A DNA stretch of 61,036 bases, counting the filler, from Sphacelaria rigidula (Eukaryota): assembly GCA_964200075.2 (NCBI GenBank). It is 7 parts of 7 records of this genome, joined end to end, with 100 filler letters (N's around TTAATTAATTAA, not from the genome) between each part and the next. Parts side by side here need not be neighbours in the genome. Positions count along the whole stretch, not along the records: positions 34,937 to 43,570 come from CAXNAA020010536.1; 6 more parts are not named here. The stretch is one strand, 5' to 3'. Below are positions 17,369-52,403 of the stretch, piece after piece; position 1 is the first letter of the stretch, and the number at the start of each line of letters is the position of its first letter. The notes beneath the pieces are model-generated. The model made no database searches, was not told the origin of the DNA, and worked only from the letters and a program-made list of their open reading frames with translations. The translations under genes were made by a program, and so were the position numbers.

Positions 17369-17468
17369 NNNNNNNNNNNNNNNNNNNNNNNNNNNNNNNN
17401 NNNNNNNNNNNNTTAATTAATTAANNNNNNNNNNNNNNNNNNNNNNNNNNNNNNNNNNNNNNNNNNNN
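17369..17468. other. Artificial contig linker
   Basis: N44-TTAATTAATTAA-N44. Confidence 0.98.
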
Positions 17469-26102: not shown

Positions 26103-26202
26103 NNNNNNNNNNNNNNNNNNNNNNNNNNNNNNNNNNNNNNNNNNNNTTAATTAATTAANNNNNNNNNNNNNNNNNNNNNNNNNNNNNNNNNNNNNNNNNN
26201 NN
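26103..26202. other. Artificial contig linker
   Basis: N44-TTAATTAATTAA-N44. Confidence 0.98.
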
Positions 26203-33309: not shown

Positions 33310-34836
33310 GAAGGATGGGAGCAGCTGGTCAAGAACACAGCACTCATGGGGAGGAAACTGACCGTTTGCAACAGAGCAGTAGAATGGTGGGACGAGGAAG
33401 TAAAACAGGCTGTCAGAGTAAGGAGAGATGCCCACGGGAGATAGATATCGAGAAAAACTACGGCAGGATAGGAGGAGTAGAGTAAAGCTCGAAAGGTAGT
33501 AAATAGGATGGTACGGCAGAAAAAGAAGGAAATATGGGAAGGTGTAGTAAATGAAACAGATGAAGATTTCGATGGCGGGATGAAGCAAATGTGGGTGGGG
33601 ATAAAAGGGATTATGGGAAACCAGACAGGAAAGATGGACAAGGGGATAGCTACGCTCCGGGCACAGAACGGTAAAATGATCAGCAGTTCGAAGGGGAAGA
33701 GAGAAGTGCTAGTCGAGCACTACCGTGAACTAGGAACACCAATAACAAACGCGGAGCTCGACGTAAAATTCGAAAAAGAAAACAGCACGTGGGCAGAGGC
33801 AAATGTAGAGGAGTCGAAACGGGAGGATAGTGGCTCGAAAGAATTGCACAGAGAGCTTGACGGAGATAAAATACGGGAGTGCGTACCTAAACTCAGGAAC
33901 AGAAAAGCAGCAGGGGCAGACGAAATAGTCACCGCGGTTTTGAAGCGTGAGGGGGAAGGAATGGTTACCATGATGGTTATCATGTACGATTGGATTTGGG
34001 AAAACGGCTACACACCCAAGAGGTGGAACGAAGGAGTAGTCGCCAACCTCTTCAAGAAAGGAGACAGTGCGGATCCAGGAAATCAAAGAGGAATCACGCT
34101 ACTGAGCACGGTAGGGAAAACATTATGTACGATTCTGAACGATAGAGTAGGAACGGTGCTTCAAAAGGAAGAGAAAATCAACGACGGACAAGCAGTATTT
34201 AGACCAAACCGTTGTTACGTAGACAATGTGTACACACTAAGTAAGATTATTCAGAGTAGGAAAGATGCCGGGCGGACAACGTTCTGTTTCTTTCTGTACG
34301 TGCAAAAGGCTTATGACACGGTATGCAGAAATGGGTTGTTGAAAAAGTTCTAGGAAGCTGGGATCTGAGAAAAGATGTGGAGAATGGTGAAAAAGATGAC
34401 AGAGAGTGCCAAAAGTGCCATGATGTTAGACGGGGCAATATCGAAATATTCCGATATCTTACGAGGAGCTGCACAAGGATGTACGTTATTACCCACTTTG
34501 TTCAAGGTGTTCATTAATGACTTGATAATAGCAGCAGAAACAGCAAAGCAAGGAGTCAAGGTGGGTGGACATGTGGTATCAGGATTGATGTTCGCAGATG
34601 ATTTTGTGGGGATTTCAGGGACACCAGAACGATTGTAGACATAGATAGACAAGGCGCTAGAATACATGAGGAGATGGAAAGTGACAGCGAACGTCAACAA
34701 ATGCGCGGTACTCGGCTGCAACGAAGGTAAGAAAAATCCGGTAGAGTTCAAGTGGAAGTGGGGAGAAGGGGAACTGCCGATCGTAGACCAGTATAAATAC
34801 GTTGGTGTAGAGATCTCAAGAAACTGTTCTTGGGAT
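33310..34836 (+). mobile_element. LINE (non-LTR) reverse transcriptase fragment, disrupted and cut by the contig end
   Basis: WWDEEVK, KAAGAD, LFKKGD..PGN.RGITLLS, Q..FRPNR, KAYDTV, GAAQGCTL.PTLF..FINDL, LMFADD; contains stops and a frameshift. Confidence 0.92.
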
Positions 34837-34936
34837 NNNNNNNNNNNNNNNNNNNNNNNNNNNNNNNNNNNNNNNNNNNNTTAATTAATTAANNNNNNNN
34901 NNNNNNNNNNNNNNNNNNNNNNNNNNNNNNNNNNNN
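34837..34936. other. Artificial contig linker
   Basis: N44-TTAATTAATTAA-N44. Confidence 0.98.
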
Positions 34937-35658
34937 GGTCCTGCGAAAACACGACCCCAGGCTCTAGCTTTTCGGTATTTTCAGTGGACCGACTCGATCC
35001 GGATCATATAAATGAAGCCTCAAAAATGATTGTTTTTTTTTAATTCCACCTAGTCACTGCGCTAAAGCAGGAAAACCATGTTTCTTGGACCATTCACGGT
35101 CAATAACACCGTCCTGATAAACGGGGTATTTACCCGGTATCGCCCCCACAACAACTTGGGCGATTGTGATTTGGGCACGGTTTGCTTATTTCGCCAAAAC
35201 TATCGACGCTAGCAATTTCGAGTGCTCAAGGAAAATGTTATGCGAGAAATCCCCGAAAATAGGCCATCGGCCGAAAATGCTAGACTGAGGTCTGTGCAGT
35301 TTAAGAGGTAAACACGATCTCGATCGTTATTGTGAAGAATTATACTTATTCATTCATCTGAATATTCACCGTTTCGTCGCTGAAGAGCGAGGAAACTGCT
35401 TACGTTGAACCAAAAACGGTCGATAACACCCTCCTGATAAACGGGGTACCAAGTCCGTATCGCCCTCAAAACACCAACTTGAGCACTGCATTTTGAGCAC
35501 GGTCTACGTTTTCTCCCTAAATTTACCGGCGCTAGACTTTCAAGTAGTAGTAAAAAATAGTACTCCGGAAAAACTCAAGGAATAGAACAACGACGAATTC
35601 TGAATACTTCTGATGCTGACTACTATACAACACCGTCGCGCTGTGTACTACAACGCAG

Positions 35659-35784
35659 GGCAAGTATGCACAGGCGGAGGCACTGTATGAGCGCTCACAG
35701 GCGATCAAGGAGAAGGTGCTAGGCCCCGAGCACCCGGAGTTGGCCACGACGCTCCACAACCGTGCGGGACTGTACCAGGCTCAG
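35659..35784 (+). CDS. TPR exon 1 (126 nt, phase 0-0, 42-aa kinesin-light-chain-type TPR) of a probable NB-ARC-TPR-like gene
   Basis: cgcag|GKYAQAEALYERSQAIKEKVLGPEHPELATTLHNRAGLYQAQ|gtgggg. Confidence 0.92.
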
Positions 35785-36076
35785 GTGGGGGCCGATATCG
35801 ATGTGTCGTGGTGGTGTGTTGGCGTGTCAGCGACCCTGTATGGTGCATGTTGCTGGCCGATGCTGTGGGTCGACGTGTAGTGTCGAGGTGGGTGCGGCGT
35901 CATGAAGTCGTTGTATGTCACGATTGTCAAGACCGGGCGTATTCCCGTTGGTTCGATGGCGAGCAGCGCTGAGCGGTTGCACACTCGAGCGAGGCGGTCA
36001 AGCGAACGCCTCGCCGCAGTTGTAGGTCCAGGTGCGACTGAGATACGACCCCGTCGCGCTGTGTACTACAACGCAG

Positions 36077-36202
36077 GGCAAGTACGCACAGGCTGAGGCA
36101 CTGTATGAGCGCTCACAGGCGATCCAAGAGAAGGTGCTAGGCCCCGAGCACCCGGAGTTGGCCACGACGCTCCACAACCTTGCGGTGCTGTGCAGGGCTC
36201 AG
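36077..36202 (+). CDS. TPR exon 2 (126 nt, phase 0-0)
   Basis: cgcag|GKYAQAEALYERSQAIQEKVLGPEHPELATTLHNLAVLCRAQ|gtggga. Confidence 0.92.
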
Positions 36203-39200
36203 GTGGGAGCCGATATCGATGTGTCGTGGTGGTGTGTTGGCGTGTCAGCGACCCTGTATGGTGCATGTTGCTGGCCGATGATGTGGGTCGACGTGTAGTG
36301 TCGAGGTGGGTGCGGCGTCATGAAGTCGCTGTACGTCGGAATCGTCAAGACCGGGCGTATTTCCCATCTATTCTCGAGACAGCGCTAATGAATAGTGCAC
36401 AAGAGGTGGGATGTACTATTGTACTGTGTATCCGATCTCGCCCCTTGAACGCTGCCGCACAATTCGATCAAGCGCGTTCGCCACGAACCTTCACGCCCCT
36501 GCACCAACTTGGCCGCGCTCGTCTTCGCACACTCGGCTGTAGTCCTTTGTCCATGGTTATCAATATTCGAGGGCTTCTCGCATCCGCCTTGGCGGCGGTA
36601 TTACCGTCGTCGGCCACACTTCACAATTCCGTTAGTTGAGGCCTGTGTCGTCGTTATGCTCTCCCAACACGCACGACGCTATTCCGCAGCGGGGATGTGC
36701 ACCGCCAGTGAGTTCAGGTGACATGCCTCGTCCGTACCCCATGCGTGAAGGACGGCGTCGACATGAAGAAAATCGATCAAACGCAGACCGTTATTCTTCT
36801 GTGAAGCGGGTACTTATCGGAGACGATTAATCGTTGTTCTCCCAATCTTTTTTGTCGAAACGGCCTGTGATTGGTCGCGGCGGCACGACCCCGCGAAGAA
36901 TGTGCCCAAAAATAATGTTTGCCAACACGATTTGGTTTTCGCCCGAGAAATATAGATGTCCCGTTCACAGGGGTAGATGCATGGCTTGGCACACGACGCA
37001 ACACGATCAGAGGTGAGTCTGAGGAAGCCTTGGCCTCCGCGAACCATGAACACGCAGCCGAGCTGAAGGTTCTCATCGACCGACCACGTTGTCCGTAACC
37101 TCGCTCAAACATGTTCGAATTGAAAAAGGAACGATGGTACACGTTTAAACGCGCGCACACCACACGCACCCAAAGGGTCAGCAATGGCACATCTTCGGTT
37201 GCAATTTGACATGCATGCAGTCGCCTTTCCTCCAATGCAAAACGGATTTTTGTCAATTGAAATCTGCCGCATGTGGATAAGCAGGGGTTAGCGCTGGAGC
37301 TCATGCGTGTGAGTAGTGGGTGCCCGTGTGTGTTCGATTGGGGCTCGATGTGTAGATCTTGTGTTGCCTTGTTGCGTCTCTTCTGTGTGACTACACAGCT
37401 GTCGGACTGATGAGTAATTCCAACGGCCGCTTTGCTGAACCTGTGTGCAGATCTGAACGAAACATGTTCCTTGGTAAGACTCAAAGTGATTGTTGTTGAG
37501 ACAATTGTTAGAAAAAACATTGTAAGGAAAATCATCTATCGTCTGACGTTGTCACCACCGCAGAATATTGTTCATCTCCCATATCACTTCTAGCCCCTGC
37601 CTTTTTCGGGACGCGTCCGTGGTGTCCTCACAGCAACCCGTCTCTTCCCCGGTACACCTCTTTCGGTATCGTGGATTGGGTCAGCATTCCCGCACCGCGT
37701 CGATTCTCGTCATGAAAAGGTCTTATTACTACACACGTCCTTCAACGCATCTGTCGGGAACTGAATCCCGATGTTTCCTGCTTGATGGTGTCAGTTGTAC
37801 TATTGGACAACCGGGGCACGGTGCCAACATTGCGAAGTCCGATTGCCACTTTGCCTGATTTTTCCTGGGTCGCCGACTCATTACCCATGATATCCGTGTT
37901 ACCTGGCCAACCTACCGGATCACGAACAGACAACCCTGGGCGGTGGCCGCCTCGCTGCAGATCAGCAACTGGCACTCCTCTTTCTGTTACAGACATGTCG
38001 AAACGTGGTGTGCATATTGGAAGCTTCGATGAATACAGGTGTGATCGCCGAAGCCAAGTGTCTACGCTCGTGCGTCACTCGTGTGGGCTACCAGCTTGCC
38101 CAGACGAATGCATGGTCTGTTGAACTCGGCAAGCAGCTAATGCTGATCGTCCAGTCTCGTCTGTTTTTCGTTCGTAGTTTCCGGCCACACACGTGTTGCT
38201 GCCGTTCATTGTGCGCGACGCAGCAGAATTGTAAGTCGGCGAGCCTGTCTAGCTTCGTCGTGAAGTAGTGATGCAGGACTGTGACGCTATTAATACCACG
38301 AAATCGATTTACTAGGGAGAAACGGAATATCCATGCAGCAATGGCCGACGGCACCCATCGAGTAGCTGGATTGTCACAGTGGACACCATCGGTCTCCAAA
38401 TCCACCCTATATCGCACAGGCAGGCGGTTAATCCTGTAAGTTGTAGGACACAACTCATTAGTACAGTAGTTGTCAGCTGATGTGAGGGGTTTTCGCATTT
38501 TTCTTCGTGGTGGGCGATTTTCAAAAGTGTTTTCGCGTGCCACCGCTCATCCCAGTGAACGTTTGACCCCGAACTTTGAGGATCGGGAGATACTAGGTAT
38601 CCGCTTCATATTCCGAAGCAGAATGGTCTCTGCACTCAAGATTGAGCGACGCACGGGCTGACCGGTATTTGGGCGTCCTACGAATACCCAGCCCCAGGTT
38701 CTGACTCTGTGTATTTTTGCTCGGTTGAAGAAAATCCCGATCGCTCTCGTGATCAAATGCGCAGATTTTTTTTCTTGAATTTCTATCTTGTCATCGCGCT
38801 ACAGCCGAAAAAATTGTTTATTGTGCCAGTGACGGTCGGTAATACTCCCTGATGAACGAGATCCTTACTCCGTATCACGCCGACAAAAACCACCTGAGGA
38901 TTGTGTCCTGAGCACGGCCTCCTTATTTTCCCAATATGTTTTGACCCGAGGACTTTCGAGTGCCGAGGAAAAACAATACACGAGAAAATCCAGAAAAGTA
39001 CTCAACTACGAAAATTGCCCAACCGAGTTTCGCATAGCACAAAGGGGGGGGGTGATTCAATGCTGGACGCTCTCGTGAAATATTCATACACTCTTGTTTT
39101 ATTTCTAGCTCTTCGTTGGCCTAGAGCCGAAGAGAAATGTGTGTTGGACCGAAAATGATGAGGGAAAAAGAAACATCCACTGTCAATACAGGCCGTGAGA

Positions 39201-40423
39201 CGTCGAATATTGAGCACAATGGGGATTTTTTGTTTCGAGTTGTGAAGCAGAAGCCTAGTATCTCCCCATCCCCAAACTCCGGGATCTAACATTTACTAGG
39301 ATGAGCGGTGACACGCGAATAAAGTTGAGAATGTCGCCGACTATGAAAAAATCACAAAACTTGTCTATTTCGGCTGAAAACTACCACACGACCCAATCGT
39401 CGCGCAGAAAACGCCACGTGTCGACGCCCTCTGCTGGAGGTCGCTGAGGCACGTCGCGAATCGATTGGCATATCCGGTTGTGTTGCGAAACGTACCGTGG
39501 GTCAGTTTCGCTTTCAAGGTGATACATCAGCCTTATCCCTCGCCCACGGTCGTGTGCTGCTTGATTATTGCGCTGCACGGATCATCATTCACACCCAACA
39601 GCTGAACCGAAGGTTGACTGGCATGTCGGATTATTTCACAGATTCTCAGTGCGCTGGATTTCCTGTACCTCAAGCATTGACTGGTGCTTTCGGCCTTGAT
39701 GGATATCCTCAGTGATTCATCCCCGAGTGCAGCTGGGGGCAACATTGAGTACCCGATCCCAATCGATGCCTGGAACGGTATCCGGCATTTGTCGCAGGTG
39801 CCGCGGCAAACTAGACCAACTTTACGAGTGTTTTTCAGTATGCCGAAATGATTGAGAATCTTTCACGTTCGTCTACAGCTTGAGTTTATTATCATACAAC
39901 GACAAAATTCATACCACCTTTTCAAGGGTCGGACAAAAAAATATTCTTGTCTGGAAATTAATTGGTTTTAGTATGATTGAATCGTACGAATCAATCCCTA
40001 GGCTTTGTTTTCAGGGTTGCAACCCAGGTACCCGCAGCCCAGACACGTGGAATGGCGCAAAAGTTGCGTGGATACCCCTTGGNNNNNNNNNNCTTTTTTC
40101 TCCCTTTTGGGCAATGAGGCCGGAGAAATCGTGGATTTGGTGATTCTTAGTCGTGATGATTCGTCCTAACCGATCGACATGTTCATAAAAATACCCAGAT
40201 ACGTGAATTCCGATTTGAACAGGGATCCGTCAACGTGTTTACATTTGCTATGTTGCCCGCTCATAGACCCGCATGGATCGATCCCGTGGTACTGGTCAAT
40301 GCGTTTTATGTCGGTATCCATGCTCTACCAAATCAAAAGGGACCTTGTCAATTCGACGCGACGTCAAGCATGGTACATTGTACAATCCGCGCTGGATTGG
40401 CGGGGCGTTGTCAATCATGATGT

Positions 40424-40888
40424 AAGATCCACTTTTATGGCAACGAATCTCGATTTGTACAAATACGAGGATTTCAGCCCATCTGCAGGCGATTTTCTCC
40501 CGTGGATTGATTTTTCAGACTCCAGTCCATTGTGCAATATTTTTCGCCTAGCTCTGAGCAAACCAGACCAATTCTCCGATTCTCTGGACCTTGACTTTTG
40601 GTCCACCACCTGTCTGCCCAAATCGGGACACTCCCGCATCCCCCCCGACTAAAATTAAATAAGTCGGGGGAGATGCGGGAGTGTCCCGATTTCAGCAGAA
40701 CGGTGATGTATCGAAAGTCAACGCCCAGAAAATCGGCGAATCGATCTGGTTTGCTCACAGCTAGCCAAAAAACATTGCCCAACGGACTGGGGCCGAAAAA
40801 TCAATCCACGGGAGAAAATCGCCTGAAGACGGGCTGAAATCCTCATACTTGTACAAATCGATATTCGTATCCATAAAAGTGGGTCTAA
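40424..40888. mobile_element. Fold-back MITE-like element (long inverted repeat)
   Basis: ~225-bp imperfect arms around an ~10-nt AT loop at 40651-40660; a further arm copy at ~53098-53280. Confidence 0.75.
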
Positions 40889-41875
40889 ATCCTCATTTCC
40901 GTCACAACATCAAACCCACTTGAGAATCAGCGAGACTGCGATGATCCAGATGGTGAGCATGTGTATTCGTGATTCCACAAACTACTGTTGTCGCCCACCC
41001 TTAAAGCCCGTTTCGTCATACCGCTTCCCCGCCCCGCTGAAGCTCTGAAACTGCCAAGCATCGCTGCCATTACCGCTGGTGCTGGCTCAGCTGTTAATGC
41101 TGCCCCTTCATTGACGACACGCGGAGCAAGCCCTAGCTTGGAGCTAGGAGGCGGATCGCGACCCCTGCCACACTGGTTGCCGTGACCATCGCCGGAGTTG
41201 GCCGCGCCTTTACCGCACCCACTGCCCCCCGCTCCGCTCCCTGCCCTTGGTAGGCGGAGGTGAGAGGAGGCCCACCACGCCATCCACCGATAGTCTTCCA
41301 GCCTGCGCCATCGTGGCACGCGAATACGTGATCAATGCCACAGTCGAGCTCGATCTGTGGGCGACTGCTTCTCGCGTTCCTACTCGACGCGCAGGGCATA
41401 CGCACGGCGGCGTTTGCCGTGAGTTGGGCCTCCTGTCCCGTCGACTGACCGCCGACCTGATGCATCGATGATGTGTCGGTGTGTGAGCCGAGACCCAGGC
41501 AGTCACGCCCTGCTGTGCCCCACTGAGCCCTGGCCCACTCCAGGCACGGACGGTACGTCTCGCATCCGCCATGTCTCTCGCCACCCCGCTACACAACGGC
41601 CGCGCTCTTCTCCAGCTCCCAACACCTGTGTCTGGTGCTGGTCCCTAAACCTTGCATTGCCTCCGCCACCTGATGTGGGCCATTTGGTGACACTCGGTCT
41701 TGGTCCGGAAGGGGCAGATACCGATACGCTCCGGTCCTTTGCGTTTTGCTGGAGGCCCGATTAATATTGTGGAATATATTGTAGGGTGAGTTTCACAACA
41801 AAGCATTGGCCAACTCTTGTGCGTGTATACTGCTCGGCTGTTTCATATTTTTGTGTGCCTTCCGAACACGTGCAG

Positions 41876-42010
41876 GGAAAGTACAAGGAGGCTGTGGCAT
41901 TCTACGAGAAGGCCTTGGCAATTTACACAAGGGCGCTCGGGGAAAATCATGAACACATCGTCTCCACGAAGCGTGCCCTGGATGATATGAGAAGAACGCA
42001 GGTTCGGTGA
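41876..42010 (+). CDS. Divergent, probably terminal TPR exon of the same gene
   Basis: gtgcag|GKYKEAVAFYEKALAIYTRALGENHEHIVSTKRALDDMRRTQVR*. Confidence 0.8.
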   Translation, partial: GKYKEAVAFYEKALAIYTRALGENHEHIVSTKRALDDMRRTQVR

Positions 42011-43570
42011 TGAGGCGCACAAAAGAGCGGCGGGTCGTGATTCGTGGCTCAATATACACGATTGATGATTGCCTCGTGATCAAAAAGCAAGCATTCATGA
42101 CCAGTAACAGGATGCGTGAGCATGGATCAAAGATTCGAGCGGCCGCTGCGAACGACGGACGTTGTCAGCAAAGATCGGTTGTCGTTCTCGTCGTTGCAGA
42201 CTGGCTCATGTGTGCGGGGAACTTGAAAGCTCGGGAGTTTCAGCATGAGAAGACAGGAGATGATGTCACGGCATTGTGTGACAAAACTGCATCGAACAGA
42301 GGGCCTTATTGTCTCGAGCATGTTCGTTCTGAGTGCGTTGTCGTGTAAGATCAAGTTACATGCCTTCCAGAAGCATGATGTGTGGGTCGATGTAAAATGC
42401 AGATGTGGAGCCTCCAAAGGTCTGGGTGCGATAATGGGTACGCGCAGTCCAAACGCAAGCGTTGGAGCTGTTTGAACCCCTGACAATATGCTGGGATATA
42501 CTGTGATGAAAAGAGTGGCGTGTGGTGATGGATCGACAGTTCTTGTGCGTGAACCGCCATTCGGATGAAGGAGTAGGAGGCAGGATGGTGCCGGTGTTGT
42601 TTTTTGGTGAAGGTGTCTGATGTGGCGGAGCTTGACGGTATGTGTCGTACCTGCAGGATTTTGTCGATCATCATCTTGCATAGGATCTAAGCGGTGCGTT
42701 CTTTCATTACATGTGAGAGTCCTCGCGTTCAAACATGTGCCAGTCTTGTATCGTTTCCAGTTTGTCAGAAAATCCGAAGATCGTTCTCTAACATTTCGAA
42801 TAAACAGAATACGTTGAGTGAAGCCAAGACATCATGGGGATACTCTGCAACTGTTGAGAGTTACAATTAGCACGCCTTGAGGCCTCTTCACTGTCATCTA
42901 TGCCAAAGCCTTGTCGAATATGCTTAAATTGAGAGCAGTGACCTGTGCTCCGACTGAACACTCCACGGAAAAGCAAGTAGACTTCGAGCTGGATTTACTA
43001 CAAGGCTGAACACTGGTACATGAAAATGCCACTCCTGGACGTCATCACAAGTGCAACACCGGGAATCAAATCCACGTAACCGAATCACGAGGGCTCAACA
43101 AACCTTTGGTAGGAACGTGGCCAAACTCCCCGGTGTGAGAACTCGAAGTGGAGGTTTTGGCAGGAAGGCTGACGGGGTCGGATTATCACGGATTGAGAAG
43201 ACACTAATCTCGAAACTTTGTGTGGGAAAAACGCCCACATTCATTCTGGGTTGGGCACGTTTTGGGCCCGAAGGGCATTGCTGCGGCAGAGATCGAGCAT
43301 GCATGCCCACGTAACAGACAGTACTGCCTGCTCGTCGTCAAAAAATTGTGTCGACGGCAAAGACCTCGGCAGCAACCCATTTACGACCACCCTTTGGTCA
43401 AGGCTAGCGTTGCAAGTCTGCACGCTCCGTACTACATGAAAGCGTGGAAGGTGCATACTGTACTGCATCTCGGCTACGCCGAATGCTGGGTCAGGGTAAC
43501 GGGGGGTGTACTCATGATCATGCTTGCCATAGTCATCAGACCATTGACCTCGCATCCCTACAAAGCCGGG

Positions 43571-43670
43571 NNNNNNNNNNNNNNNNNNNNNNNNNNNNNN
43601 NNNNNNNNNNNNNNTTAATTAATTAANNNNNNNNNNNNNNNNNNNNNNNNNNNNNNNNNNNNNNNNNNNN
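43571..43670. other. Artificial contig linker
   Basis: N44-TTAATTAATTAA-N44. Confidence 0.98.
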
Positions 43671-52303: not shown

Positions 52304-52403
52304 NNNNNNNNNNNNNNNNNNNNNNNNNNNNNNNNNNNNNNNNNNNNTTAATTAATTAANNNNNNNNNNNNNNNNNNNNNNNNNNNNNNNNNNNNNNNNN
52401 NNN
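52304..52403. other. Artificial contig linker
   Basis: N44-TTAATTAATTAA-N44. Confidence 0.98.

What the first reader, a model, noticed from the sequence alone, without database searches (positions are those of the whole stretch)
35632..36365. Tandem one-repeat-per-exon TPR cassettes duplicated with their introns: exon-shuffling candidate immune receptor
Seen: two ~315-bp cassettes at a 418-bp period. Each has a ~27-nt acceptor flank, a 126-nt phase-0/0 exon encoding one 42-aa TPR and ~160 nt of near-identical downstream intron. A divergent terminal TPR exon lies 5.7 kb further on (41876-42010). Known: Ectocarpus NB-ARC-TPR and ROCO-LRR genes encode each repeat in its own exon and were proposed as exon-shuffling pathogen receptors (Zambounis et al. 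2012). Inference: this is the 3' end of such a gene. Symmetric exons can be gained, lost, converted or skipped in frame, and the conserved intron flanks could be the recombination substrate. The NB-ARC domain is not in this contig.
Basis: partly seen in the sequence, partly recalled or inferred. Interest (0 to 1): 0.8.

Follow-up and report, generated by a model that had tools for sequence, protein, structure and literature searches.

The report
Duplicated TPR exons, brown-alga receptor-type gene
Two neighbouring copies of a small exon-plus-intron block, each encoding one TPR repeat, form the tail of a brown-alga gene of an already described candidate immune-receptor type, so this is a real but ordinary new example.

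Summary
35618-35917 and 36036-36335 are 300-nt direct repeats, 94% identical, 418 nt apart. With gaps the repeat runs 35625-35970 / 36043-36386. Each copy holds a 126-nt phase-0 exon with AG/GT borders encoding a 42-aa TPR_12 unit. A stop-terminated capping TPR exon lies at 41876-42010.

A contig from a probable RNA run covers the cap exon and at least 733 nt of 3' UTR. It seems to start in exon 2, which hints at splicing.

The nearest protein units, up to 83% identical, come from brown-algal NB-ARC-TPR proteins. The N-terminal domain cannot be seen, because the window is seven unrelated 8.6-kb pieces and this one starts 720 nt upstream. A second brown-algal family without NB-ARC carries the same units and a slightly closer cap.

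The window holds no orphan, decayed or inverted TPR copies. The intron copies show no special RNA fold.

Differences between the two copies cluster in helix-A codons.

One-repeat-per-exon TPR genes were described in 2012 and 2023. Verdict: a new member of a known kind, of low to moderate interest.

The parts
34937..35617 (+). Start of the 8634-nt piece. This is the upstream intron, filled by a very high-copy repeat with two 69-nt copies 320 nt apart.
   Evidence: The linker ends at 34936. Repeat family D2 is at 35085-35153 / 35405-35473, 80% identical. Summed contig depth is 10^5 or more, against about 68 for single-copy bins in run X1 (table 2).
35625..35658 (+). Shared acceptor flank of cassette 1, ending in AG.
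   Evidence: 2 differences in 34 nt against 36043-36076.
35659..35784 (+). TPR exon 1: 126 nt, phase 0/0, 42 aa.
   Evidence: Translation. Pfam TPR_12 E=1.6e-10, 41.4 bits against a cut-off of 30.1. 89.8 bits, E=7.8e-27, against an HMM of 122 brown-algal units.
35785..35970 (+). Copied part of the intron after exon 1 (GT donor).
   Evidence: 4 differences in the first 133 nt against copy 2, then decaying similarity with indels.
35971..36042 (+). Unique spacer between the two cassettes.
   Evidence: blastn finds no second copy in the window at E<0.03. Run X1 holds a 2094-nt contig that matches only 35888-36080, with 12 differences (tables 3 and 8).
36043..36076 (+). Shared acceptor flank of cassette 2.
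36077..36202 (+). TPR exon 2: 126 nt, phase 0/0, 42 aa.
   Evidence: Pfam TPR_12 E=1.4e-12, 48 bits. 83.3 bits against the brown-algal unit HMM. 10 nt and 5 aa differences from exon 1.
36203..36386 (+). Copied part of the intron after exon 2.
36203..41875 (+). Intron 2: GT..AG, nominally 5673 nt. It contains a 10-N scaffold gap at 40083-40092 and high-copy palindromic repeats at 40425-40886.
   Evidence: Inverted repeats I1 and I3. Depth, table 2. No significant TPR remnant on either strand.
41876..42010 (+). Terminal capping TPR exon: 44 codons plus TGA.
   Evidence: Pfam TPR_10 E=3.9e-8, 33.5 bits against a cut-off of 27.5. It aligns to the last 39-42 residues of brown-algal proteins: 21 of 42 identical to P0019, 17 of 39 to P0008.
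42011..42743 (+). 3' UTR, minimum extent.
   Evidence: Contig record 32 of run X6 (895 nt, depth 18.7) lies on 41873-42743 with 0 other letters (table 8).

Best explanation
This is the 3' end of a transcribed brown-alga gene whose C-terminal sensor arm is a TPR array built from one 42-residue period per 126-nt phase-0 exon, closed by a divergent capping TPR exon.

The two cassettes are related by a recent germline event that copied about 346 nt: 34 nt of acceptor flank, the exon and about 186 nt of intron. The event was either a local duplication or a gene-conversion tract between neighbouring repeat exons. The intron flanks are alike because they were copied, not because they are conserved for a function.

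Since then the copies have diverged by 5.5%. The changes are bunched in the codons of TPR helix A.

By analogy with its closest relatives, the array is most likely the ligand-sensing, autoinhibitory arm of a STAND NTPase (NB-ARC-TPR). In-frame gain, loss, conversion or skipping of repeat exons would vary that arm.

Shown here: the repeat, the exons, the cap, the similarity to brown-algal units, and the clustering of differences.

Inferred: the splice of exon 2 to the cap (weak contig evidence), the NB-ARC N-terminus (about even odds), the copying mechanism, and any immune role.
For: - Repeat and exon anatomy.
- TPR identity: Pfam TPR_12 and TPR_10 above cut-off for both exons, TPR_10 for the cap.
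- Family: of 902 proteins with E<=0.001 among 907 candidates, the three best are brown-algal NB-ARC-TPR proteins (P0007, P0008, P0009). NB-ARC was confirmed in P0007 (E=1.9e-26) and P0009 (E=5e-18).
- Among 136 units cut from 13 brown-algal proteins, the 12 nearest to exon 1 and the 12 nearest to exon 2 all come from P0007, P0009 or the fragment P0046, whose NB-ARC label is my own inference (71-83% identity).
- The motif TLH, present in both exons, occurs in 30 of 80 units of NB-ARC-type proteins and in 1 of 56 units of the other family.
- The cap aligns to the extreme C-terminus of these proteins.
- Transcription. Run X6 is labelled RNA only as a guess. In it, a contig of depth 18.7 covers 41873-42743 starting at its letter 25. 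A contig of the same depth, 18.7, covers 36192-36195 with exon-2-specific letters. Intron contigs have depth 3-5 (tables 3 and 8).
- Differences between copies: 16 in 293 nt, 6 of them within 16 nt (permutation p=0.005).
- The 5 amino-acid differences sit on family-variable positions: mean entropy 2.29 against 1.32 bits, p=0.009 over 107 distinct units. Four of the five lie in helix A by the Pfam register.
- The 72-nt spacer has no counterpart after copy 2. This fits a copied or converted tract better than a clean 418-nt tandem duplication.
Against: - No N-terminal domain is visible. Nothing NB-ARC-like lies in any of the seven pieces.
- The unit tree is unresolved. Exons 1 and 2 pair with each other (100/95) inside a polytomy that mixes both families.
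- At protein level the support is only 3 proteins of 13, and these 13 were picked from the 120 listed hits by their brown-algal or eukprot source names.
- The cap is slightly closer to the non-NB-ARC family: scores 100 and 94, against 86 and 83.
- The cap searches found no brown-algal orthologue.
- The exon 2 to cap junction rests on 24 letters. That is under the 31 the tool asks for a bridge, and a 10-N scaffold gap lies between the two exons.
- Exon versus intron divergence is not significantly different: 10 of 126 against 4 of 133, Fisher p=0.10. NG86 dN/dS is 0.36, so these two copies alone give no sign of positive selection.
- Only three repeats are seen, fewer than the 8-17 units cut from each of the 11 relatives that are not shorter forms or fragments. 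More may lie upstream.
Confidence: 0.6

Rival explanations
1. The cassettes and cap are as described, but the gene belongs to the second brown-algal family with this TPR type. That family has an N-terminal domain of about 335 residues with no Pfam match, possibly a RelA/SpoT-like nucleotidyltransferase fold. Alternatively it is a TPR-only gene. Either way it would not be an NB-ARC gene.
For: - Five of the 13 brown-algal hits (P0012, P0019, P0041, P0067, P0116) share this N-terminus, 42-residue units and, in four of the five (not P0067), the same kind of cap.
- No NB-ARC was found in the three that were scanned.
- The window's cap scores best against them: P0019 21 of 42 identical with score 100, P0012 and P0041 score 94. 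The best NB-ARC proteins score 86 and 83.
- Zambounis et al. also note 'other repetitive TPR' loci with successive equal phase-0 exons (PMC3341825, section 17).
Against: - The internal units are nearer to NB-ARC-type proteins: best identity 83%, 79% and 76%, against 74%.
- The TLH motif is nearly absent from this family, 1 of 56 units.
- The differences in cap score are small.
Confidence: 0.25
2. This is a decaying or truncated remnant: a transcribed pseudogene tail left after rearrangement. The family is known for fast gene birth and death.
For: - Only three repeats are visible.
- The upstream 680 nt and much of intron 2 are high-copy repeats, and there is a scaffold gap.
- 5 of 24 Ectocarpus NB-ARC loci are probable pseudogenes (PMC3341825, section 14).
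- Both exons carry minority residues at otherwise conserved positions: Q5, where 99 of 107 units have E, and Y/C39, where 83 of 107 have L.
Against: - All three exons are open, with intact AG/GT sites and in-phase borders.
- dN/dS between the copies is 0.36, not about 1.
- The cap exon and UTR stand at depth 18.7 in the probable RNA run, against 3-5 for the introns.
- Y at unit position 39 is TPR position 11. By my recollection, tyrosine is the canonical residue there.
Confidence: 0.15
3. The near-identical intron flanks are substrates of a programmed, possibly somatic, recombination that reshuffles TPR cassettes. This is the adaptive-immunity idea of Zambounis et al.
For: - Cassette borders lie in introns, and phase-0 symmetry allows any in-frame rearrangement.
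- The one contig of runs X3 and X4 over 36192-36195 reads the letters that exon 1 has at the homologous places. X1 and X6 read the window's letters (table 3).
- A variant of the inter-cassette spacer exists in X1 and X3.
Against: - No joint of +/-418 nt is among the 15 joints shown, though 247 were not shown.
- The intron copies have no special fold (z -0.96 to +0.40) and no Rfam match.
- No inverted or orphan copy is in the window.
- The runs are from different samples that differ by 1-3% elsewhere as well, so ordinary alleles explain the differences.
- A later paper states that no somatic recombinants or dedicated recombinase have been reported, and it prefers alternative splicing (PMC11378527, section 15).
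Confidence: 0.03
4. The two-copy arrangement is an assembly artefact: a collapsed or falsely expanded tandem repeat.
For: - In X1, the best holder, the only contig listed over the spacer differs at 12 of 193 places from the window.
- No listed contig spans both cassettes.
Against: - The copies differ at 16 of 293 places, so they are distinct sequences.
- X4 holds a contig with the window's letters at 10 of the 12 spacer positions listed in table 3 between 35922 and 36024 (all of 35922-35985); it reads T at 36009.
- X1 and X6 hold exon-2-specific letters at 36192-36195 (table 3).
Confidence: 0.03

Closest known systems
Ectocarpus NB-ARC-TPR genes with repetitive 42-aa TPR exons (Zambounis et al. 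2012, PMC3341825; Teng et al. 2023, Plant J, not held, known only through citing papers)
   Same: 126-nt, 42-aa phase-0 exons, one TPR period each. Unit sequence up to 83% identical. A divergent C-terminal capping repeat. Local similarity between neighbouring repeat exons.
   Different: The NB-ARC domain is not visible here. Only three repeats are seen. No inactivated TPR exons lie in the introns of this piece, whereas the paper reports them on the coding strand of such loci.
Brown-algal proteins with a Pfam-less N-terminal domain of about 335 aa plus the same TPR units (P0012, P0019, P0041, P0067, P0116)
   Same: The same 42-aa units and the same kind of cap. The window's cap is marginally closest to this group.
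   Different: Their units lack the TLH signature of the window's exons (1 of 56). The nature of their N-terminus is only a lead: RelA_SpoT-like by ESM Atlas structure, TM 0.42/0.69. My own AlphaFold model was too poor to test this.
Brown-algal LRR-ROCO genes (72-nt LRR exons)
   Same: One repeat per exon, in-phase borders, and exon duplication and shuffling with alternative splicing (PMC3341825; PMC11378527).
   Different: A different repeat type, phase 2, with the LRRs N-terminal. Reshuffled copies are often on the non-coding strand, and none is seen here.
Highly internally conserved TPR/ANK/WD repeats of fungal and bacterial NLR-like proteins (Podospora; PMC13449251 passages)
   Same: Near-identical sensor repeats whose differences concentrate on a few positions of one helix. 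Unequal crossing-over or conversion is the presumed engine.
   Different: Those repeats are contiguous coding DNA without introns. Here each period is a separate exon, and the copied tract includes intron.
Tandem exon duplication with alternative or mutually exclusive splicing (for example DSCAM; discussed in PMC11378527 section 15)
   Same: Tandemly duplicated symmetric exons that could be chosen or skipped in frame.
   Different: There is no evidence here for exclusive choice. In the relatives, successive repeat exons are all included in the array.

Membership tests
Brown-algal NB-ARC-TPR (clade with repetitive TPR exons, Zambounis 2012) | N-terminal NB-ARC (PF00931) domain | not testable with these tools
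   The piece starts at 34937, 720 nt before exon 1, and no whole genome is held. tblastn with 13 brown-algal proteins hits only the three TPR exons in all seven pieces.
Brown-algal NB-ARC-TPR (clade with repetitive TPR exons, Zambounis 2012) | TPR domain built of 126-nt / 42-aa exons with phase-0 borders | tested here: met
   Two such exons with AG/GT borders. The paper's definition was read in section 16 and in a passage of section 19.
Brown-algal NB-ARC-TPR (clade with repetitive TPR exons, Zambounis 2012) | Unit sequence of the GKYxEAEPLY...G.EHP..A..L.N.A.LL..Q type | tested here: met
   89.8 and 83.3 bits against an HMM of 122 brown-algal units. 83% identical to a unit of NB-ARC protein P0007. 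Departures: Q5, A8, L28 and Y/C39.
Brown-algal NB-ARC-TPR (clade with repetitive TPR exons, Zambounis 2012) | Divergent C-terminal capping TPR | tested here: met
   41876-42010 aligns to the last 36-42 residues of P0008, P0009, P0016, P0039 and P0074. It aligns slightly better to the non-NB-ARC proteins P0019, P0012 and P0041, so this feature does not separate the families.
Brown-algal NB-ARC-TPR (clade with repetitive TPR exons, Zambounis 2012) | Inactivated or extra TPR exons in the introns (sign of shuffling) | tested here: not met
   The HMM scan of 2627 six-frame fragments gave 3 hits with E<1e-6 and the next at E=0.9. The hit at 41574-41612 has E=9. Only 8.6 kb of the locus is visible.
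Pfam TPR_12 / TPR_10 | Score above the curated cut-off | tested here: met
   Exons 1 and 2: TPR_12 at 41.4 and 48.0 bits (cut-off 30.1), TPR_10 at 33.6 and 34.9 (cut-off 27.5). Cap: TPR_10 at 33.5 bits, TPR_12 at 28.8, which is below the cut-off.
   None of the source names shown for the 120 listed hits is a kinesin light chain, though many of the 120 rows carry no name. The nearest units are from NB-ARC-TPR proteins. The N-terminus is not visible.
Brown-algal TPR family with a Pfam-less N-terminus | The shared N-terminal domain of about 335 aa | not testable with these tools
   For the same reason as NB-ARC. The domain gives no Pfam match (0 families at E<=10) and no PDB sequence match. A profile of 3 sequences gives only E=0.067 and E=1.2 hits.

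The most novel reading that the evidence does not exclude
The bunched differences in the helix-A codons (6 of 16 differences within 16 nt) may be footprints of short templated conversion patches. These would be written into the ligand-facing helix from neighbouring or paralogous cassettes, with the copied intron flanks providing the homology. A second observation fits this: other samples carry exon-1-type letters at three of these places in exon 2. If so, this would be a gene-conversion-based diversification of a receptor arm in a brown alga, possibly occurring somatically.
Probability: 0.06. Interest if true: 0.75.

Novelty: new member of a known kind. Interest (0 to 1): 0.25.

Why it matters
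The locus adds one more clean example of a young, intron-inclusive copy of a TPR repeat exon. The gene class involved is proposed, but never shown, to act as a brown-algal pathogen receptor.

Its value is as a small, well-delimited test case. The two cassettes differ at 16 known places, so long reads or amplicons could tell directly whether cassette number, order or helix-A patches vary between individuals or tissues.

It does not change what is known. The exon-per-repeat architecture, exon duplication and alternative splicing of this family are already in print.

Tried and rejected
- Whole genome: none is held, so cassette and intron copies could not be counted in the assembly.
- Cap-exon protein searches. 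The 'longer' search gave 6 generic TPR proteins among 12 candidates, none brown-algal. The 'near' search gave nothing. It therefore found no short RNA-derived peptide that would have shown the splice junction.
- The exon-1 search lists only the best 120 of 902 hits. A short, exact fragment from the same organism could be hidden below the list.
- Metagenome scan with the two-exon alignment: 80 loci kept, all 48-65% identical, on contigs with Ga-, WN- and OB-type names. I did not open them and took them for bacterial-type TPR genes. No algal relative was recognised.
- RNA runs: no listed holder is on record as RNA. X6 is RNA only as a guess, and all runs are contigs, so neither depth nor uncovered parts were used as evidence of level.
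- The joints to 43501 and similar (table 5) have sides under 30 letters and lie in very high-copy repeats. I disregarded them.
- Unit phylogeny: unresolved.
- Positive selection between the two copies: not supported (dN/dS 0.36; exon versus intron Fisher p=0.10).
- Intronic RNA element. Rfam gives nothing in the cassettes; its four weak matches, all below gathering score, lie at 40613-40699. Folds are no better than shuffles.
- Possible decayed TPR exon at 41574-41612: E=9, which is noise.
- Five long ORFs in the introns and UTR: 0 Pfam families.
- N-terminal domain of the second family. Pfam and PDB sequence searches were blank. AlphaFold2 with a 3-sequence alignment gave mean pLDDT 60 with the core below 50, so I ran no fold search. 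The PDB profile search gave only non-significant hits.
- Earlier notes of this scan: none for this genome or this sequence.
- Teng et al. 2023 is not held.
- Supplementary tables of Zambounis et al. (exon lists, other repetitive TPR loci) were not opened and may bear on the family assignment.
Full report
**The window and the piece.** The window is not one stretch of genome. Runs of 44 N, then TTAATTAATTAA, then 44 N recur every 8734 bases and cut it into seven pieces of 8633-8634 nt. The finding lies in piece five, 34937-43570. That piece also holds a 10-N scaffold gap at 40083-40092. Only 720 nt therefore lie upstream of the first cassette, and the neighbouring pieces give no context. No whole genome is held.

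**The observation.** The repeat finder on 34000-43000 returns one long direct-repeat family: 35618-35917 and 36036-36335, 300 nt, 94% identical, spacing 418.
- A gapped alignment extends the repeat to 35625-35970 and 36043-36386.
- A 38-nt word from the intron part occurs exactly twice in the window. None of 100 shuffles gave any match.
- blastn of the separate parts finds two copies each of the flank, the exon and the intron part, and nothing else with E below 0.03. The 72-nt spacer 35971-36042 is unique.
- Each copy holds a 126-nt open frame bordered by ...acaacgcag| and |gtggg. It starts and ends on whole codons.
- The two peptides are 88% identical. Both pass Pfam TPR_12 (41.4 and 48.0 bits, cut-off 30.1) and TPR_10.
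It passes TPR_10 at 33.5 bits against a cut-off of 27.5.

The shared acceptor flank is 34 nt. The near-identical intron is 133 nt with 4 differences, followed by about 53 nt of decaying similarity.

**Search for further copies.** I cut 136 units from 13 brown-algal proteins and built an HMM from 122 of them. I then scanned 2627 six-frame fragments of the whole window with it.
- The three exons score E=7.8e-27, 8.5e-25 and 6.7e-07. The next hit has E=0.9.
- Neither the introns of this piece, nor the opposite strand, nor the other six pieces hold any orphan, decayed or inverted TPR exon.
- tblastn with the 13 full proteins hits only the three exons, so nothing NB-ARC-like is in the window.

**Which family.** Exon 1 was searched against the 5.8-billion-protein collection for longer proteins. 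It gave 902 hits with E<=0.001 among 907 candidates, of which 120 are listed.
- The three best are P0007 (eukprot, 83% to its best unit), P0008 and P0009. The latter two are named 'NB-ARC and TPR repeat-containing protein' of Ectocarpus siliculosus.
- I fetched 13 of the 120, chosen because their source names are brown algae or eukprot. I did not examine the other 107, which are mostly CHAT-TPR and similar metagenome proteins.
- Pfam confirms NB-ARC in P0007 (E=1.9e-26) and P0009 (E=5e-18).
- For P0008, P0016, P0074 and P0085 I rely on the precomputed PF00931 entry.
- P0039 shares its N-terminal sequence with P0085. I labelled P0046 an NB-ARC fragment from its linker sequence, which is my own inference.
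- Five proteins (P0012, P0019, P0041, P0067, P0116) instead share an N-terminal region of about 335 residues with no Pfam match and no PDB sequence match.

At least two architectures therefore carry this TPR unit in brown algae. Zambounis et al. also mention 'other repetitive TPR' loci (PMC3341825, section 17).

**Assigning the window's gene.**
- The 12 nearest units to each exon all come from NB-ARC-type proteins P0007, P0046 and P0009, at 71-83% identity. The best unit of the other family reaches 74%.
- The motif TLH, present in both exons, occurs in 30 of 80 units of NB-ARC-type proteins and in 1 of 56 units of the other family.
- Against this, the maximum-likelihood tree of 134 units is unresolved. 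The two window exons pair with each other (100/95) inside a mixed polytomy.
- The cap aligns a little better to the other family: P0019 score 100 with 21 of 42 identical, and P0012/P0041 score 94. The NB-ARC proteins P0016 and P0008 score 86 and 83.

I put NB-ARC at about even odds, the other family or a TPR-only gene at about one in four, and a truncated remnant at about one in seven.

**Transcription.** No holder of the stretch is on record as RNA. Run X6 is labelled RNA only as a guess, and all runs are contigs.
- An 895-nt X6 contig of depth 18.7 lies on 41873-42743 without any difference, starting at its 25th letter.
- At 36192-36195 a contig of the same depth, 18.7, carries the letters that tell exon 2 from exon 1.
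- X6 contigs on the introns have depth 3-5 (tables 3 and 8).

This fits a transcript in which exon 2 is spliced to the cap exon, with a 3' UTR of at least 733 nt. The bridge is only 24 letters, under the 31 the tool requires, so it is a hint and not proof. Loose ends in X6 at 35698 and 36116 show contigs from related but different TPR exons (table 7). This is in line with a multi-member family.

**How the two copies differ.**
- Flank: 2 differences in 34 nt. Exon: 10 in 126. First 133 nt of intron: 4.
- The exon versus intron contrast is not significant (Fisher p=0.10). NG86 gives dN 0.060, dS 0.164 and a ratio of 0.36, so there is no sign of positive selection.
- The differences are bunched. 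6 of the 16 fall within 16 nt, at 35762-35777 (p=0.005).
- The five amino-acid differences, at unit positions 17, 35, 37, 39 and 40, sit on positions that vary across 107 distinct brown-algal units. Mean entropy is 2.29 bits against 1.32, permutation p=0.009.
- By the Pfam register, unit residue 1 is TPR_1 position 15 and TPR_10 position 16. Positions 35-40 therefore belong to helix A of the next structural repeat. Each exon encodes helix B, the linker and the following helix A.
- The spacer after copy 1 has no counterpart after copy 2. A tract of about 346 nt, copied or converted between neighbouring repeat exons, fits this better than a clean 418-nt tandem duplication.
- The intron copies fold no better than shuffles (z +0.40, -0.31, -0.57, -0.96) and match no Rfam family. 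Their likeness needs no explanation beyond recent copying.

**Other samples.** X1 matches the unique parts of the piece with 0-1 differences per contig. X3 and X4 differ by about 1-3% (table 8).
- At 36192, 36194 and 36195 the single X3 contig and the single X4 contig read the letters that exon 1 has at the homologous places. X1 and X6 read the window's letters.
- No differences at the other exon-2-specific places nearby are among the rows shown, but 217 rows were not shown. I cannot tell a mosaic allele from a contig of exon 1 laid on exon 2.
- In X1 the only contig listed over the spacer is 2094 nt long. It matches only 35888-36080, with 12 differences, and then runs on unlike the window.
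- X3 holds both this variant and window-type letters. X4 holds window-type letters at the 10 spacer positions listed from 35922 to 35985 and reads T at 36009. A related spacer plus acceptor therefore exists elsewhere, either further up the same array or at a paralogue.
- No joint of plus or minus 418 nt is among the 15 joints shown (247 not shown).

**What is known.** I read the abstract and sections 11, 14, 16, 17, 22 and 27 of PMC3341825, plus passages.
- 13 of 24 Ectocarpus NB-ARC-TPR genes have TPR domains of 42-aa exons.
- Those genes carry inactivated TPR exons in their introns, almost all on the coding strand.
- The family shows gene birth and death and site-wise positive selection. The authors proposed somatic recombination.

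From PMC11378527 (section 15 and passages): Teng et al. 2023 extended this to other brown algae and favoured alternative splicing, and no somatic recombinants or recombinase have been reported. Teng et al. 2023 itself is not held. PMC13449251 (passages) compares these genes with highly internally conserved repeats of fungal NLRs. The Phaeoexplorer preprint (one passage) reports expansion of NB-ARC-TPR orthogroups. Two earlier notes of this scan describe helix-A-focused variation in TPR arrays of cyanobacterial NLR-like proteins. These are analogies only.

**Verdict.** It is a new locus of a described kind. The NB-ARC assignment and any recombination role of the intron flanks remain unproven. 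The bunching of differences in helix-A codons, and the hints of variation between samples, are the only points worth a follow-up.

Noticed in passing
window 8635-8734, 17369-17468, 26103-26202, 34837-34936, 43571-43670, 52304-52403: The window is a composite: seven pieces of 8633-8634 nt joined by N44-TTAATTAATTAA-N44 linkers. Neighbouring pieces therefore give no genomic context for one another.
   Followed up: yes
window 40083-40092: A 10-N scaffold gap lies inside a very high-copy repeat, between exon 2 and the cap exon. The stated intron length of 5673 nt is therefore nominal.
   Followed up: partly
window 34937-35617: A very high-copy element fills the intron upstream of exon 1. It has two 69-nt copies 320 nt apart (80% identical). 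Summed contig depth in X1 is 10^5 or more, against about 68 for single-copy bins.
   Followed up: no
window 40425-40886 (also 39833-40408): A palindromic, MITE-like high-copy element lies in intron 2. Its arms are 139 nt (82% complementary) and 92 nt (91%). The central hairpin at 40613-40699 gives weak miRNA-precursor-like Rfam matches, all below gathering score.
   Followed up: no
window 43289-43570: The last bin of the piece has an extreme summed depth, 3.2 million in X1, with G-rich loose ends at 43501. It is probably a satellite or very abundant repeat.
   Followed up: no
proteins P0012, P0019, P0041, P0067, P0116 (not in the window): A second brown-algal family joins the same 42-aa TPR units and cap to an N-terminal domain of about 335 aa with no Pfam or PDB sequence match. 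The ESM Atlas structure search gives a RelA_SpoT-like lead (TM 0.42/0.69 over residues 72-238). A non-significant PDB profile hit (E=1.2) is to the RelA/SpoT-like protein Tas1. My AlphaFold model was too poor to test this.
   Followed up: partly
window 35888-36080 (run X1, contig record 1): A 2094-nt contig matches only this inter-cassette stretch, with 12 differences, and then continues unlike the window. The same variant is seen in X3 but not in X4. A related spacer plus acceptor therefore exists elsewhere in the genome.
   Followed up: partly
window 9911-10327 and 8778-8891: A 44-nt tandem repeat array (8.8 copies, 87% matches) in piece 2, with a second short array of the same unit at the start of that piece.
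   Followed up: no
window 38500-38623 / 39228-39351: Inverted repeat in intron 2: 124-nt arms, 76% complementary, 604 nt apart. It is possibly the ends of a small transposon.
   Followed up: no
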